From Escherichia coli (GTDB lineage: Bacteria; Pseudomonadota; Gammaproteobacteria; Enterobacterales; Enterobacteriaceae), in assembly GCF_024223415.1 (NCBI RefSeq), contig NZ_CP100500.1: DNA of 64,000 nt; one strand, given 5' to 3'. The position numbers are program-made. Numbering within the stretch: position 1 is the stretch's first letter; each line of letters starts with the position of its first letter. Below are positions 36,001 to 42,000 of the stretch, in pieces.

Positions 36001-39000
36001 CTGAACTTCTTAAGGCGCAAACAGGAGGACGAACAGCAGAAAGGCAAACGCGGCAAGGACACCCGCAAATACGAGCGCTTCGTACAGAACGGGATCCCCG
36101 CACGTCTTTGCCGTATTCGTGAGATTAACGATCGCTTTGCACCGTTGAGTTTTCAGGCCGCTGCCATGCGCGAGAGTCTGGAAGAGTTAATCACACTGCC
36201 GAACCTGAGCCGTGAACGCATCCAGAAAATAGCCGTACTGCTTGCCAGCGCCGTTAAAATGCATCTTGCCGACGCAATGGACAAGGCCCGCGAAATAACA
36301 GGGAACGACAAAGACGACAACCTGAACAACTGGCTGATTGCCTACCAGTATATTGGTCGCCGTGTCCTGAAGCTGGGGATCACCCCACCATACTGGAGCG
36401 CCCTTGAACTCCGTCCCGACCGCAGAAGCCCCCCGGACCTGACACTGGTACCGGGCGCTGTTTTGCGCCTGAACGACGCCGAATGGTGGAATAAAAAACT
36501 TCGCCAGATGCACGACGTCTGGCGTGAGGAACTTTTACGTGCAGCGGGCCTTGTATCCCGCCAGACCTCCATTTATGTGAGCCGGGAAGCACTGGCAGAC
36601 TTCCGCGAGAAACAGGCCCGTACCCGCGATTTTCTCAAAGCGCACGACGTGGAGAACGAAGACGGCGAACGCATCAGCCTGGAAGATATCTACTACACCA
36701 GTACATCCAACCCGCATAACCGCCGCAACGAGATGATGGCGTGCGTCAAGGGAATGGAGCTTATCGCACAGGAACGTGGCGACGTGGCCTTCTTCGTCAC
36801 GGTCACAGCCCCGTCTCGTTTTCACAGCGTCACCGACGCCGGTACCCTTAACCCGAAATACAAAGGCACAACAGTAAAAGACGCCAGCGACTATCTGGTT
36901 TATAACTTCTTCGCCTCCGCCCGCAAACTCATCAAAAAAGAGAAGCGGGGCTGGTACGGCATTCGCACCGTTGAGCCTCACCACGACGGCACGCCCCACT
37001 GGCACATGCTGGTATTCACAAGCCCCGAGAACGAAGCGCGCATCACGGAAATCATGTGCAATGCCGCCATCCGTGAAGACCGTGCAGAGCTGGGCGACGA
37101 CATTACCCCGCGCTTCAAGTGCGAGAAGATAGACCCCGAAAAAGGTACGCCAACCAGCTACATCGCCACCTACATCGGCAAAGGCATTGACGCCGCCGCA
37201 TTCGGCGACACGGATCCCAAAACAGGCAAACCGCCCGTTGACCACGAAAGCGGAAAACCTATGGCGGACACCGTGGAAAACGCCGTCGCCTGGGCACGCC
37301 TGCATCGCATTCGCCAGTTCCAGTTCTTTGGCCTTCCCTCACGTCAGGTGTGGCGCGAGTTCCGCCGCCTTGCCGGACAAATGGCACGCAACCCGAAGGG
37401 GCCGCAGGCACTGACCAACCCCAAAGCCGACGCTCTGCTGGCCGCCGCCGACGTGGGGTGTTTTGCCAGCTACATTATGCATCAGGGCGGCGTGCTCATT
37501 CCCCGCAGTGAATATCTGGCCCGCACGGCCTACGTCACCGCAGAAGAGCCGAACAACTACGGCGAGTTCCCCGACCGTATTTACGGTGTACGGATGCCGG
37601 AACTGGGCGATGAGTTCACGTTATGTACCCACCCGGAAGAGTGGAAACTCGTCAGAAAAGAACCGGAATCAGACGACCGCACGGGCGAGGGTTTTGACCT
37701 TCAGGGCGACCCCGTCGCCCCTTGGACTCGTGGCAATAACTGTCACCCTGACGAAAAAACAACCAACAACAGCACACAAACCGGACAGTCAGAGTGGGCA
37801 AAACTGCCCCCCTTACCCCCATCGTCGGACGGTTTTGTGAGCTGGTTTAAGTCGCTTAAGAGGCCGGACAGGAAAAAACTACAAAGATTGCTCAAAAAAC
37901 GCACCGAAGAGAGTCGCCAGAACGCCAGCGGCGGCACCGACACACCCACCGACACCATTAACCTGGGCGTTGTGCTGCCGGAACTGCCGGAAATCGTGCA
38001 AGTCCGCCGCGATCTGGAAGCGCTGGGCGCGGACTTCCCCGAAGCAATGGCCCATTCCGTCTTTATGGGTGCCCGCGTTCGTCTGGGTAACGGTCGCACC
38101 GTTCACCGCGACGAGCAGACCGGGCGCATCACCGTCACCAGTCTGCAACCGGAGGCGAAACCATGAACCGTTATCATTGTGTACTGCCGCGCCACTACTT
38201 CGGTCAGATTATGCGCTCGCGTATTCCGGCGGTCACGCTGCGAAACCTGAGCACGGTACCGCAGCCGGGCGATGAGCTGGAAATCGCCGTAGCAGGCCCT
38301 GACCGTTCAGCCAGCTGCGTGACCGCCGACGTGCTGAACGCCGTGCCCGTAGGTGGTGACTGGCTGGTTGCCATCCGCTTCCGCCAAGACCCGTTCGCAC
38401 CTGAACCGCTCACCCCCGCAGGCCGCATCATGCAGAACTGGCGGGATGAAGGCGCGAAGGCGAACTGCGAAAAACTGATTAACAGGATTGCCACGACAAA
38501 CCGACATGCCGCGCTGGCGCGCCGGATATACCCCGCAAAACCGACACAACCAACAGGAGTAAAACGCCCATGAAAAGAATCGCCGGAACCCACAGAGACA
38601 CAAAAAGACACCAAAAGCAGCAAAGACACATTGAATAAACGAAAACTGGTGATATGATTTGTTCAAAGATGTTATGATTTATTCATAAGTAACCTTTCAG
38701 GCTTAAGTTATGAATAAACAGGATTTTGGACTTGATACCCTTTTGAGTATGCATGGTTACCAGCATCACATGGATAACGGGTACTGGTGGAAAATTAAGG
38801 CTTACCGGGTAAGTCCAAGTCCGTTCAGACCTCACGGGATACGCTACAATCTGACGTTACATGACCGCTACAATTCGCGTGTGTTTGGTATGGACAACGC
38901 ACATGGAATAAAACCGCCAAAGAAGGGAAGATTTACAGGAAAGTTAACTGTTTATGATCATGTGCACCGTACCCCGGTGGATAAAGGTTATCCCTATGAG

Positions 39001-42000
39001 TTTGTATCCGCAGAACAATTGTTATCTGATTTCTTTGATAACGTTGATCGGCTCATTAACGAAGTTACAAAGGGGAAAGCATGAAAGCCCGCATCGGGAT
39101 CATCCCGGAAAAAGTCCTGCGTCAGCGCCTGATTGAAATTGCCAAGGGGGAGCGGAAACCACACCCCGACGAGCCAAGGGTATGGTTTTCATCCATCAAT
39201 GCGGCGGGTCAGGCGCTGAGCAATGAAAATATCTCCCTTCTTCGTCTTATGGATGAGGAGAAACCGCAGACCATGACCGAACTTGCGGAGTTATCCGGCA
39301 GAAAACTGAGTAACCTGTCTGTAACCCTGAAAATGCTGAGCAGCTACGGTTTTGTCAGTCTGGAAAAGAAAGGAAATACCGTACACCCGAAGGCACTTTT
39401 TACCGATTTTGAAATCATCGTTGATCCGTCCGTCGGTTCAGTACATCGCGCCACCGCCCGCCCCTGAAGTGTGCAATAAACAGCCCCGGTCGGGGCTGTT
39501 TTTTATTCCAGAATCAGCTGTTCAGGTGTGCAGCCGTACAGTCTGGCAAGGCGCTCAATATTTGCCCTGCGCGGGCGTTCTGTTCTTTCGAATTCGGACA
39601 CGGTAGCCTGCCTGATACCCAGCGCATCCGCCACCTGCTTTTGCGTCATTCCGCGATAGATTCGCCACGCCGCCTGCATGGTGCAGCCACGTTCCGAGAG
39701 GATGTTGACCACCTCGTTGGGATACAGCGTATCAGGCGATGCACTCGGTTCGTTCTGGACGTCCTCGTAGAGTTCGTCAAGGTCGCTGTCTCCTGCCAGT
39801 TTTTCAAACAACGCCACTGGCAGAATGACGGATACCCTGTTACCCGCACCGTCAGTAATAAACTGAATCTGACTCATTTGCCCCTCCTGCTAAACATCGG
39901 TTTATTTTTTAATTTGCTGCCGGTGATAAAAAACGGCGGGTCGCCCCGCCTTAGTATGTTGTCGAGGTTCTCCGCTGAATACGGAGGATCCTGATAACCA
40001 CTATCTGCCCTCCCTCAATCGTGAACCTGACACGGTAATGATTTACCCTGAGTCTGTACTCCCCGCCCGAGTCAGTGAGCTTTTTAATATCCAGATTCTG
40101 GAACTTCGGATAGCCATAAAGCGCGTTAACTTTCTCGCGTAAGGATTTCTGATCCCTCGCTGGCAAAACCCGTAAATCTTTGATTGCCCGAGGGGTCCAC
40201 ATGATTTCAGTCGTCATAAACACACCGGAAGCAAATTATTAAAGAGCCGTGCCCGCTGGCACACCTTAAATATAGGTTTTAACCCCTATATTGTCAAACA
40301 AAATCCCTATATCATGAAGTAAAAAAGCACCTCCCGCGACCTCCCTTTCCGGTGCACGAAAGTGCACAAATTTGCACAATTTTTTTGAACGACTTTTTGC
40401 CCTTCCGGCCCGTGTGGCGTCTGGATCCGTCGGGGATCCGTGCGTGCACGAAAAAAGGCCTTTTTCTGCGCGCAGGTGACGGGGGAACAGCCCGCGTTTC
40501 AGGGGGTAAATAGCATTCCCTGAACGATGTTGCAGTGACACAACAGAATGGCTGTATTTCTCACGCTGAGCGTGAAAAAGACGTAAGGGCTTTTGATTTG
40601 ATGGGGTGAAAGATAAGGCCGTCAAAATCGCACTGAGGCAGCGAGAATATGTCGTCAGAGTTGCGGGGTTGCGTAAGCATCCGCCCGGCGATGATGGCTA
40701 CAGGGCTGGAGATGTTGTGAAATTATCTGAAGGAATAACCAGCTTGCAGGAGAACCCGGGCAAAGTCAGAATAGCGGCAGGCATCAACTCAAAAGAGGAT
40801 AATGTCATGAGCCACTTTAATGATTTATGCCAGATCAATCGTGAAGCTGAAGAAAAACGCGCTGAGGCAGCTCAAATTTTGCGGGATGAAGCGGCAAGGC
40901 TGATTGATTTCTATGAAGAATGGCTGGGGCTTCCATCCATGTACTGGGAAGACGATGATGGCGACCTGCACCGCTACGTGGAGACAGGCTTGCCATGTAA
41001 GACAGCGGCGGATTTTAGTCCTCTTTCAGTCCACAATATCGCATCTGCACCAGACAATATTTTCCGCATGGCCGTACGAACCTGGGTTAAGTCATCTGAC
41101 AGCAGCTACCCGGTAAGCGTGGTTATTGCACTTGAATTATATTCAGTAGATGCGGAACGGGTGTCTCTGAGAGTCCGGGTGGAAGACGATATTTCTGTTC
41201 GCGTATTTATCAATAAACCCAGCGAAGAAGCCTGGGGCGATGTTGTTATGCACATGAAAAAGCACATCGCTAATCACCTGAAAAAGCGAGCGCCATCAGC
41301 ACTTCGTTAAGCAGAGCTGGAGAGTCGGGGCATAAATTTTTTATGCCCCGGCGAAGCAGCAGACAAGCGAAGCGCGTCAGGATATGGGCCGGGTGTCTAA
41401 CAGTGCGTAAGGGTTAAAACGGATCACCTCTTCGCCCAGCCAGTCGTTGACGTGTTTCATTGCTTCCATGACGGGCATCAGTTCGTTAATGGCAAACACA
41501 CGGGCTGCCTTCTCCACATCCCCGAATGACCCCTTCTCACCCGGCATGGCCCCCATCAGCTGAGGTGGCACGCGGTGCACAGCCAGCACGTCATCACGCG
41601 ATGCGGCCTTGACGTTCATGAACTCATCCTTTGCGGTGATTTGCTGAAACGGCAAAATCTGTACGCCATCCTTACCACCTCCCGCCGCGTGGATGAGCAG
41701 ATTTTTAAACGCCCCGCCACCACGCGCGCTTTGCAGCGTTTCCCGCAGTTTTTCCATGCTTTCACGGTCAACCTGCGCCGCACCGATGTAGACAATACAG
41801 CCCGCGTGTGAGCCGTTATCGTAGTAGAGCTTGCGGAAGATATCGGCGGAATGTGACAGGCTGGCAGACAGCAGGCCGCCCAGGTAATCCGGCATCCCGT
41901 AAATCTCCTGGTTGATATCAGGATTCATCAGGTGGCATATCGTCCCCTCACGAAAGCGGTACTCTTCCTGTCCTTCCTGTATATACCACCATGATTTCAT

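What the first reader, a model, noticed from the sequence alone, without database searches (positions are those of the whole stretch)
38574..39510. Uncharacterised two-gene operon in the P2 A-to-Q (tin/old position) hotspot
In P2 the interval between replication gene A and the portal gene Q holds the non-essential tin and old genes, and in P2-like prophages this position is known to be a variable slot for anti-phage cargo. Here it carries a compact operon with its own AT-rich promoter containing two direct repeats of ATGATTT(G/A)TTCA 20 bp apart, a 124-aa His/Tyr/Trp-rich protein, a translationally coupled (ATGA) 128-aa winged-helix DNA-binding protein, and a strong intrinsic terminator. I cannot place the 124-aa protein in any family from memory. 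The architecture is that of a toxin-antitoxin-like or small defence module with an autoregulating DNA-binding partner.
Basis: partly seen in the sequence, partly recalled or inferred. Interest (0 to 1): 0.75.

Follow-up and report, generated by a model that had tools for sequence, protein, structure and literature searches.

The report
TumE-TumA toxin-antitoxin cassette in P2 hotspot
The two small genes are a real, self-regulated toxin-antitoxin pair of the TumE-TumA kind described in 2023, carried as cargo in a P2-like prophage; this makes the finding a new, untested variant of a known system, not something unknown.

Summary
Two translationally coupled ORFs (38710-39084 and 39081-39467) lie behind an AT-rich promoter and ahead of a strong terminator, in the gpA-gpQ slot of a P2-like prophage.

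It is not uncharacterised. ORF1 belongs to DUF6516/PF20126, the TumE toxin shown in 2023 to stop E. coli growth, be neutralised by its partner and reduce translation. RefSeq already names the near-identical protein (99.7% identical DNA) "toxin-antitoxin system TumE family protein". ORF2 is an HVO_A0114-family winged-helix protein.

New here:
- In 109 of 109 related loci the partner lies directly downstream, mostly with an ATGA overlap.
- The two genes diverge together (r = 0.90).
- A palindrome, TTATSA-N5-TSATAA, overlaps the -10 in 86 of 109 loci, against about 1 expected by chance.
- In 5,426 E. coli genomes, 12 carry both genes, 3 carry the partner only, and none carries tumE alone.

This subfamily differs from the six validated pairs: the toxin comes first and the partner is a larger winged-helix protein. 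It is untested. Its fold has no solved relative, and an anti-phage role is plausible but unproven.

Verdict: new member of a known kind; modest interest.

The parts
38631..38658 (+). Promoter-like site P1: -35 TTGAAT, 16-nt spacer, TG-extended -10 TATGAT. The -10 lies in the upstream repeat copy.
   Evidence: Consensus scan, 9/12 matches with TG. The same TTGAAT -35 precedes the single palindrome in the Salmonella loci. Function is inferred.
38652..38668 (.). Upstream, degenerate copy of the operator palindrome (ATATGATTTGTTCAAAG). In this survey it appears only in the E. coli allele, as part of a 20-bp tandem duplication.
   Evidence: Direct-repeat family D1, 14/16 identity, 20-nt spacing. 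The other related upstream regions shown carry a single copy.
38649..38678 (+). Promoter-like site P2: -35 GTGATA, 18-nt spacer, TG-extended -10 TATGAT. The -10 is the left half-site of the conserved palindrome.
   Evidence: Consensus scan, 9/12. Function is inferred.
38672..38688 (.). Conserved palindromic operator candidate TTATGA-N5-TCATAA (TTATGATTTATTCATAA), the presumed binding site of the ORF2 dimer.
   Evidence: The strict palindrome TATSA-N5-TSATA occurs once, 9-41 nt upstream of tumE, in 29/29 of the first loci. The relaxed core (at most 1 mismatch) occurs in 86/109 loci, against 0.0104 expected per 110 nt. Half-site changes are symmetric (TATGA/TCATA versus TATCA/TGATA). The site is absent from L030, where tumE and its promoter were replaced.
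38710..39084 (+). tumE: 124-aa toxin of the DUF6516/PF20126 (TumE) family. pI 9.45, 43% GC.
   Evidence: Homologs carry PF20126 and the names 'TumE family' or 'DUF6516'. PF20126 hits 20/41 subfamily members directly. RefSeq annotates near-identical DNA this way. The AF2 model (pLDDT 84.5) matches AFDB DUF6516 models with TM up to 0.95.
39081..39467 (+). tumA-like partner: 128-aa HVO_A0114-family winged-helix DNA-binding protein, the presumed antitoxin and autorepressor. Its Shine-Dalgarno sequence (AAGGGG, 39070-39075) lies inside tumE, and its start overlaps the tumE stop (ATGA).
   Evidence: PF25212 at 3.8e-16, MarR at 3.8e-4. It lies immediately downstream of tumE in 109/109 loci. It is retained when tumE is lost. 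The fused-pair AF2 model has pTM 0.77.
39478..39508 (+). Intrinsic terminator: 10-bp stem (6 GC pairs), 4-nt loop, TTTTATT tail. It abuts the stop codon of the convergent HTH gene.
   Evidence: Terminator scan and the sequence itself.

Best explanation
The locus is a type II toxin-antitoxin cassette of the TumE-TumA superfamily. A P2-like prophage acquired it as cargo in its gpA-gpQ hotspot.

- ORF1 (TumE, DUF6516) is the toxin. By analogy with validated family members, it arrests growth by shutting down translation. The chemistry is unknown. The invariant His/Asp/Arg constellation (H42, H51, R57, D62, N63, H65, H86, and nearly invariant D83/H84) suggests a metal-dependent hydrolase, possibly an RNase.
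- ORF2 (HVO_A0114-type winged helix) is the antitoxin. It is made by translational coupling from the same mRNA, binds and neutralises TumE, and as a dimer binds the palindrome TTATGA-N5-TCATAA over the -10 box to repress the operon.
- If antitoxin supply stops (prophage loss, host shut-off, infection by another phage), free TumE stops translation. This would either stabilise the prophage or abort a competing infection.

Shown here: family membership, strict and co-evolving gene pairing, conserved coupling, the conserved operator-like palindrome, the asymmetric loss pattern, and the hotspot location.

Inferred: toxicity of this particular protein, direct neutralisation, operator binding, the trigger, and any anti-phage effect.
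For: Family membership:
- ORF1 homologs (131 at E <= 1e-3) nearly all carry PF20126 and the names 'DUF6516' or 'toxin-antitoxin system TumE family protein'.
- PF20126 'Toxin TumE' hits 20/41 subfamily members directly, best 2.7e-11.
- RefSeq names near-identical DNA (99.7-100%) TumE family or DUF6516 family protein, plus HVO_A0114 family protein or transcriptional regulator.
- The AF2 model (pLDDT 84.5: two helices plus an antiparallel sheet) matches 142 AFDB50 models at E <= 1e-3. Only a few of the listed hits are named DUF6516 family protein; most are unnamed.

Published function: six DUF6516 toxins stop E. coli growth and are neutralised by their cognate partners. One of them reduces 35S-Met incorporation (PMC10584680).

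Pairing:
- The partner lies directly downstream in 109/109 loci from Gamma- and Betaproteobacteria, a Desulfobacter-like contig and viral contigs.
- There is a -4 overlap in 51/103 clean pairs.
- Identity of the two genes to the query correlates at r = 0.90.

Operator: the palindrome is present in 86/109 loci, against about 1 expected by chance. It overlaps the predicted -10.

Asymmetric loss: among 5,426 E. coli genomes, 12 have both genes, 3 have the partner only plus a 66-bp tumE remnant, and 0 have tumE only.

Interface: the fused TumE-linker-partner model has pTM 0.77 despite a 30-residue disordered linker.

Hotspot: the gpA-gpQ slot next to cos is a validated defence hotspot (PMC9122126). 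ORF1 is 43% GC against 58% for the flanking phage genes.
Against: - This subfamily differs from every validated pair. The toxin is encoded first, and the partner is a 128-aa winged helix. The tested antitoxins are about 76-109 aa, and the paper places the partner upstream of DUF6516 in their cluster.
- I could not retrieve the validated sequences for a direct comparison.
- ORF1 itself falls below detection by Pfam, NCBIfam, PHROGs and PADLOC models, so its membership is transitive.
- No toxicity, binding or defence data exist for this protein.
- The three partner-only genomes share one breakpoint, so they probably reflect a single event.
- The complex evidence is only a pTM value from a non-standard fused-chain run.
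- The toxin fold has no solved relative, so the biochemical mechanism is guesswork.
- There is no match to any known defence system, and no literature links TumE to phage defence.
Confidence: 0.8

Rival explanations
1. The cassette is specifically an anti-phage abortive-infection system, and the prophage carries it to exclude competing phages. On infection, TumE is released from (or out-lives) its antitoxin and shuts down translation before the invader completes its cycle. This refines the best explanation rather than contradicting it.
For: - It sits in the gpA-gpQ, cos-proximal hotspot, where old/tin and several other cargos were shown to defend.
- A 2026 preprint reports that most unannotated cargos it tested in P4 hotspots were defensive.
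- Two alleles occupy the same slot in different P2-like prophages with different neighbours.
- It is co-resident with a second toxin-antitoxin pair.
Against: - No PADLOC match.
- No report of defence by any TumE system.
- Rousset et al. catalogued this arrangement only as 'hypothetical' genes, and I found no sign that it was among the systems they tested.
- None of the 80 species-representative loci has a portal or terminase gene within 4 kb, so the cassette is not phage-specific.
- In Rousset et al., 3 of 8 additional cloned P2-hotspot systems showed defence.
Confidence: 0.35
2. The cassette is mainly a selfish or addiction module. It stabilises itself and the prophage by post-segregational killing and has no role against other phages.
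For: - It is widespread as a free-standing two-gene cassette in chromosomes, outside phage contexts.
- It has classic type II toxin-antitoxin features: coupling, an autoregulatory operator, and asymmetric loss.
Against: - It is rare in E. coli: 12 of 5,426 complete genomes.
- It recurs in a hotspot enriched for defence genes.
- The two roles are not mutually exclusive.
Confidence: 0.3
3. The pair is not a toxin-antitoxin system. ORF1 is a non-toxic enzyme or nucleic-acid-binding protein, and ORF2 is simply its transcriptional regulator.
For: - ORF1 is at the edge of the PF20126 model.
- Gene order and partner type differ from all validated pairs.
- Nothing has been tested for this subfamily.
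Against: - ORF1 is clearly homologous to DUF6516 members, and its fold matches AFDB DUF6516 models.
- All six DUF6516 proteins tested so far were toxic.
- The pairing is strict, the genes are translationally coupled, and tumE never occurs alone.
- The fused model has a high pTM, which suggests physical contact.
Confidence: 0.1

Closest known systems
TumE-TumA toxin-antitoxin superfamily (DUF6516/PF20126; Durairaj et al., Nature 2023, PMC10584680), validated subcluster 1a
   Same: - The toxin is in the same Pfam family, with the same predicted alpha+beta fold.
- It is a conserved two-gene operon with a DNA-binding partner.
- It occurs in Gammaproteobacteria.
- The fold has no relative in the PDB.
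   Different: - Here the toxin gene comes first. The paper reports DUF6516 downstream of its partner in clusters 1, 2, 4 and 6.
- The partner is a 128-aa HVO_A0114-type winged helix. The tested antitoxins are about 76-109 aa, and one cluster 1 partner is a remote RelB homologue.
- This subfamily has not been tested experimentally.
- I could not obtain the validated sequences for a direct comparison.
Toxin-first type II toxin-antitoxin operons such as HigBA and MqsRA (from established knowledge)
   Same: - The toxin gene lies upstream of a helix-turn-helix antitoxin that also represses the operon through a palindromic operator.
- The cassettes are small and mobile.
   Different: - The toxin fold is unrelated (HigB and MqsR are RelE-like RNases; TumE is not).
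- The antitoxin is a winged helix (MarR/ArsR-like), not an XRE-type or zinc-ribbon HTH.
Cargo of the P2 gpA-gpQ hotspot: old/tin and other systems (Rousset et al. 2022, PMC9122126)
   Same: - It occupies the same cos-proximal slot between the replication gene A and the portal gene Q.
- Its GC content is low relative to the phage core.
- It is swapped between related prophages as a cassette.
   Different: - It has no sequence relation to old, tin or any PADLOC system.
- Anti-phage activity is untested. That study lists the arrangement only as 'hypothetical' genes.
HVO_A0114 family (PF25212) HTH proteins next to DUF6516 genes in haloarchaea
   Same: - ORF2 belongs to the Pfam family named after a Haloferax plasmid gene.
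- In a Halococcus genome, an HTH-domain gene (family not stated) is listed immediately before a DUF6516 gene on two plasmids.
   Different: - In the Halococcus listing the HTH gene comes before DUF6516, whereas here the toxin comes first.
- No functional data exist for either.

Membership tests
TumE toxin family (DUF6516, PF20126) | Sequence homology to the family | tested here: met
   - 131 homologs at E <= 1e-3, nearly all with precomputed PF20126 and named DUF6516 or TumE family.
- PF20126.4 hits 20/41 aligned subfamily members directly, best 2.7e-11.
- ORF1 itself is missed by hmmscan, so membership is transitive (45-86% identity to the aligned subfamily members).
- RefSeq names the near-identical protein (99.7% identical DNA) TumE family.
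TumE toxin family (DUF6516, PF20126) | Alpha+beta fold: two helices packed on an antiparallel beta-sheet, with no PDB relative | tested here: met
   - AF2 model, pLDDT 84.5: helices at 6-13 and 101-122, with 5-7 strands between them.
- 142 AFDB50 matches at E <= 1e-3, TM up to 0.95, a few of the listed hits named DUF6516.
- No Foldseek PDB hit at E <= 1e-3.
TumE toxin family (DUF6516, PF20126) | Toxic when expressed; inhibits translation | not testable with these tools
   Shown only for six subcluster 1a proteins, with translation inhibition shown for one of them. It needs a growth assay and metabolic labelling for this protein.
TumE-TumA type II toxin-antitoxin system | Conserved bicistronic arrangement with a cognate partner | tested here: met
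   - The partner lies directly downstream in 109/109 loci.
- An ATGA overlap is the commonest junction (51/103).
- Co-divergence, r = 0.90.
- The order is the reverse of that in the validated clusters.
TumE-TumA type II toxin-antitoxin system | The partner is a TumA antitoxin of a validated type | tested here: inconclusive
   - The tested antitoxins are about 76-109 aa, estimated from the synthetic DNA lengths, and the paper places the partner upstream in their cluster.
- Here the partner is 128 aa, lies downstream, and belongs to PF25212.
- The paper states that TumE is neutralised by 'diverse unrelated antitoxins'.
- The validated TumA sequences could not be retrieved.
TumE-TumA type II toxin-antitoxin system | The antitoxin binds and neutralises the toxin | tested here: inconclusive
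   - The fused-chain AF2 model has pTM 0.77 and a confident partner N-terminus, which suggests a defined interface.
- Loss pattern: 0 genomes with tumE only and 3 with the partner only (probably one event), out of 15.
TumE-TumA type II toxin-antitoxin system | Autoregulation through an operator in the promoter (typical of type II systems) | tested here: met
   - The palindrome TTATS-N7-SATAA lies within 110 nt upstream in 86/109 loci, against 0.0104 expected per 110 nt.
- It overlaps the -10 box.
- Half-site changes are symmetric.
- Actual binding cannot be tested here.
HVO_A0114 family winged-helix proteins (PF25212) | Match to the family profile | tested here: met
   - PF25212 at i-Evalue 3.8e-16, residues 30-105.
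- Homologs are named HVO_A0114 family.
- phrog_11214 at 3e-20.
P2 gpA-gpQ hotspot cargo | Located between replication gene A and portal gene Q of a P2-like prophage | tested here: met
   - The annotation of near-identical and identical records shows replication endonuclease, then the slot, then portal, terminase, GPO and the P2-family capsid protein.
- Salmonella loci show PF05840 Phage_GPA and PF04860 Phage_portal flanking the pair.
- The hotspot is defined in PMC9122126.
Known anti-phage defence systems (PADLOC-DB v2) | Match to a defence-system protein model | tested here: not met
   - ORF1 has no hits.
- ORF2 has only weak winged-helix hits to CasR/CARF regulators, best E = 1.5e-5, covering only the C-terminal end of the profile.

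The most novel reading that the evidence does not exclude
The toxin-first TumE / HVO_A0114 cassette is a distinct, untested branch of the TumE-TumA superfamily that P2-like phages use as an abortive-infection weapon against competing phages. Its toxin would be a metal-dependent enzyme with a fold absent from the PDB. Its antitoxin would recognise a family-wide operator, TTATSA-N5-TSATAA, with specificity switched by a recognition-helix residue (Val/Ala versus Arg at position 81).
Probability: 0.3. Interest if true: 0.55.

Novelty: new member of a known kind. Interest (0 to 1): 0.3.

Why it matters
The main value is corrective: a 'dark' operon in a phage defence hotspot turns out to belong to a toxin-antitoxin superfamily named only in 2023, and public annotation already reflects that.

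What remains worth pursuing:
- This toxin-first, winged-helix-partner branch has never been tested.
- It now has a precisely predicted operator and a short list of invariant candidate catalytic residues. That makes autoregulation and the still-unknown TumE chemistry directly testable in E. coli, its native host.
- It recurs in the P2 gpA-gpQ slot. This offers a natural setting to ask whether TumE systems defend against phages, which I did not find reported in the library searched.

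Tried and rejected
- Direct family scans of ORF1 (Pfam, NCBIfam, PADLOC, PHROGs) gave nothing. This was resolved through homologs and by scanning the alignment members.
- The phage GenBank collection has no match to the 937-bp region.
- A 5' leader hairpin covering the tumE start codon (38678-38718) has dG -12.4 kcal/mol but z = -1.43, and 22 of 200 shuffles fold as well. 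I rejected it as unsupported.
- I could not obtain the sequences of the six validated TumE/TumA pairs for direct comparison. The supplement holds only accession numbers and DNA lengths, and the exhaustive profile search lists only the top 150 close relatives.
- Operator half-site type covaries perfectly with ORF2 position 81 in the recognition helix (Val/Ala/Ser/Thr... versus Arg). It covaries equally with many other positions, because the two types are two clades. This is suggestive only.
I could not measure the interface or check whether the invariant His/Asp residues cluster.
- The four apparent loci without a partner and the six 'no pair' cases were artefacts of my ORF and start-codon picking.
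- The 193-aa ORF that replaces tumE in three genomes matches no family.

Full report
**Observation.** ORF1 (38710..39084, 124 aa) and ORF2 (39081..39467, 128 aa) lie on the + strand and overlap by ATGA. Upstream is a 35% GC stretch. It holds two 16-nt direct repeats, TGATATGATTTGTTCA and TGTTATGATTTATTCA, 20 nt apart start to start. Each repeat contains a TG-extended -10 hexamer, TATGAT, of a sigma-70-like promoter. Downstream is a strong hairpin terminator at 39478-39501, followed by TTTTATT. ORF1 has 8 His and 8 Tyr but only 2 Trp, with pI 9.45.

**Context.** The window is 100% identical over the 937-bp region to E. coli isolate F374. The genes lie in a complete P2-like prophage next to btuC, between the replication endonuclease (gpA-like, 35677..38166) and the portal and terminase genes (41377..44183). 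Rousset et al. define this gpA-gpQ, cos-proximal slot as a hotspot, with 1,650 gene arrangements in 18,150 occurrences (PMC9122126).

**Identity of the proteins.**
- Direct scans of ORF1 against Pfam, NCBIfam, PADLOC and PHROGs found nothing.
- A search of 5.8 billion proteins found 131 homologs. Nearly all carry PF20126, and many are named 'DUF6516 family protein' or 'toxin-antitoxin system TumE family protein'.
- Scanning each member of a 41-sequence alignment showed that PF20126.4 ('Toxin TumE') hits 20 of them directly (best 2.7e-11). ORF1 therefore sits at the edge of the model, and its membership is transitive.
- RefSeq annotates near-identical DNA (99.7% in strain TUM9803) as 'toxin-antitoxin system TumE family protein' plus 'HVO_A0114 family putative DNA-binding protein'.
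- ORF2 matches PF25212 (HVO_A0114) at 3.8e-16 and MarR at 3.8e-4.

**What is published.** Durairaj et al. (Nature 2023, PMC10584680) describe DUF6516 as the toxin of a new superfamily, TumE-TumA.
- Six gammaproteobacterial toxins from subcluster 1a abolished E. coli growth and were fully neutralised by their cognate partners.
- The Allochromatium tepidum toxin lowered 35S-methionine incorporation.
- RNase activity was proposed but not shown.
- HHpred and Foldseek found no PDB relative.
- They report DUF6516 mostly downstream of its partner (clusters 1, 2, 4 and 6) and describe it as neutralised by 'diverse unrelated antitoxins'.
- From the synthetic DNA lengths, the tested antitoxins are about 76-109 aa.

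The present pair therefore belongs to the superfamily but differs from everything validated: the toxin comes first, and the partner is a 128-aa winged helix. I found no paper linking TumE to phage defence, and none mentioning HVO_A0114. Rousset's supplementary table lists this very arrangement (WP_029400441 + WP_029400439 + WP_029400438 and others) only as 'hypothetical' genes, an HTH and a ParE toxin.

**Does the pair travel as a unit?** Yes. I collected 109 loci encoding an ORF1 relative:
- E. coli and Salmonella P2-like prophages;
- a Desulfobacter-like metagenomic context at 46% identity;
- 19 IMG/VR contigs;
- 80 species-representative genomes, out of 367 that matched, mostly Gamma- and Betaproteobacteria.

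An ORF2 homolog lies immediately downstream on the same strand in all 109. The apparent exceptions were artefacts of my ORF calling. The commonest junction is the ATGA overlap (51 of 103 cleanly extracted pairs), and most of the rest have gaps of 5 nt or less. Identity to the query correlates between the two genes at r = 0.90.

The cassette is independent of P2. None of the 80 genome loci has a portal or terminase homolog within 4 kb. In E. coli and Salmonella, by contrast, two alleles (about 100% and about 75% DNA identity) sit in the gpA-gpQ slot of different P2-like prophages, with different neighbours.

**Operator.**
- TATSA-N5-TSATA occurs exactly once, 9-41 nt upstream of the tumE ORF, in 29 of the first 29 loci. 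There was one unrelated hit in about 260 kb.
- With the core TTATS-N7-SATAA and at most one mismatch, 86 of 109 loci have a site within 110 nt upstream. The background rate is 0.0104 per 110 nt, so about 1 locus would be expected by chance.
- The half-sites change symmetrically between clades (TATGA/TCATA versus TATCA/TGATA), as expected for a dimer-binding site.
- In the window, the conserved copy is 38672-38688 (TTATGATTTATTCATAA). Its left half is a predicted -10 box.
- The E. coli allele carries a second, degenerate copy 20 bp upstream (38652-38668). The Salmonella and other upstream regions shown have a single copy.
- The site is absent where the promoter was replaced (L030).
- ORF2's predicted recognition helix (residues 74-86) contains invariant R74, N78 and T82. 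Position 81 splits perfectly with half-site type, but this is confounded by phylogeny.

**Toxin-antitoxin logic from comparative data.** Among 5,426 complete E. coli genomes, 12 carry both genes and none carries tumE alone. Three carry only the partner, next to a 66-bp remnant of the tumE 3' end. In those three, tumE and its promoter were replaced by a 50-aa and a 193-aa ORF of no known family. They share one breakpoint, so this is probably a single event. One Serratia locus has a truncated tumE with an intact partner. The asymmetry is what a toxin-antitoxin pair predicts, but the numbers are small.

**Structure.**
- AF2 on the 41-sequence alignment gives pLDDT 84.5 and pTM 0.79. The model has an N-terminal helix, a 5-7-stranded antiparallel sheet, a low-confidence basic loop (residues 63-83) and a long C-terminal helix.
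- It matches 142 AFDB50 models at E <= 1e-3, with TM up to 0.95. A few of the listed hits are named DUF6516.
- Invariant residues across the subfamily are W26, P41, H42, G43, Y46, L50, H51, N55, R57, G60, D62, N63, A64, H65, D83, H84, H86, Y96, L104 and F108. The His/Asp/Arg set suggests a metal-dependent active site. This is inference only.
- A fused TumE-(GS)15-partner model, built from 40 paired sequences, gave pTM 0.77. Every part of both proteins was confident except the linker. A value that high for a 282-residue chain with a disordered 30-residue linker suggests a defined interface.

**Mechanism proposed.** The locus is an autoregulated type II toxin-antitoxin cassette. The winged-helix antitoxin is made by coupling from the toxin's mRNA. 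It sequesters TumE and represses the promoter at the palindrome. When antitoxin supply fails, TumE blocks translation. The biological role in the hotspot could be abortive-infection defence, prophage addiction, or both; this is not resolved.

**Verdict.** The claim of an uncharacterised family is outdated. This is a new, untested member or branch of a known kind. The useful additions are the operator, the survey and the candidate catalytic residues. Interest is modest.

Noticed in passing
window 39503-40223 (- strand): A second toxin-antitoxin pair in the same hotspot, convergent with the tumE operon. It consists of a RelE/ParE-like toxin (39951-40217/40223; phrog_1213 at 1.2e-14; TIGR02385 at 22.6 bits, below its cut-off) followed by a 124-aa XRE-type HTH (39503-39877; phrog_7241 at 1.3e-29). 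It is toxin-first like HigBA. A near-consensus promoter, TTGACA-17-TATATT, lies at 40297..40269 on the - strand. The tumE terminator hairpin abuts the HTH gene's stop codon.
   Followed up: partly
window 34757-34954 (+ strand): Rfam finds isrK (34757-34831, 59.8 bits) and a C4 antisense RNA (34867-34954, 79.2 bits). They lie directly upstream of a 72-aa 'derepression protein' gene (35014-35232) and the gpA-like gene. This looks like a P1/P7 immI-type antisense/antirepressor module inside a P2-like prophage.
   Followed up: no
L030 3237-3967 (E. coli 24A16CRGN010; also strains Br_112_kylling and 23CRST011): In three E. coli genomes the same slot keeps the HVO_A0114 gene (93-99.7% identical). 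tumE and its promoter are replaced by a 50-aa and a 193-aa ORF with no Pfam or PADLOC match and only weak PHROG hits. A 66-bp tumE 3' remnant remains. The shared breakpoint implies one event. Whether the 193-aa protein is a swapped-in toxin partnered with the retained winged helix is unknown.
   Followed up: partly
window 40598/40606-41310 (+ strand): A 234-aa ORF (RefSeq calls it from 40598) of unknown function (phrog_5091 at 3.5e-52) lies between the RelE pair and the portal gene. It has homologs in three of the viral contigs that carry tumE.
   Followed up: no
window 55960-59737 (- strand): RefSeq marks the tail tape-measure gene of this prophage as an incomplete pseudogene (equivalent to window 57962-59737). 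Mechanical ORF listing, however, shows one 1185-aa ORF at 55960..59517. This is either a frameshift near the 5' end or an annotation artefact. The prophage may or may not be defective.
   Followed up: no
window 38574-38630: An A/C-rich, G-poor stretch containing two copies of AAAGACAC 18 nt apart (38604-38611 and 38622-38629). It lies between the end of the 136-aa ORF (38163-38573, phrog_14984) and the tumE promoter. It could be a Rho-utilisation-like spacer that insulates the cassette from read-through; this is purely speculative.
   Followed up: no
Supplementary file 4 of PMC9122126: In the HHpred table of Rousset et al., the DUF2290 protein of their 'Helicase+DUF2290' system has a weak DUF6516 match (probability 87.8, E = 2.9). 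This hints at a possible distant link between TumE-like domains and that system.
   Followed up: no
L087 3068-3812 (Serratia ureilytica): The tumE homolog is truncated at its C-terminus (109 aa, ending ...EDFLPG) while the downstream partner is intact. This is a second possible case of toxin decay with the antitoxin retained.
   Followed up: no
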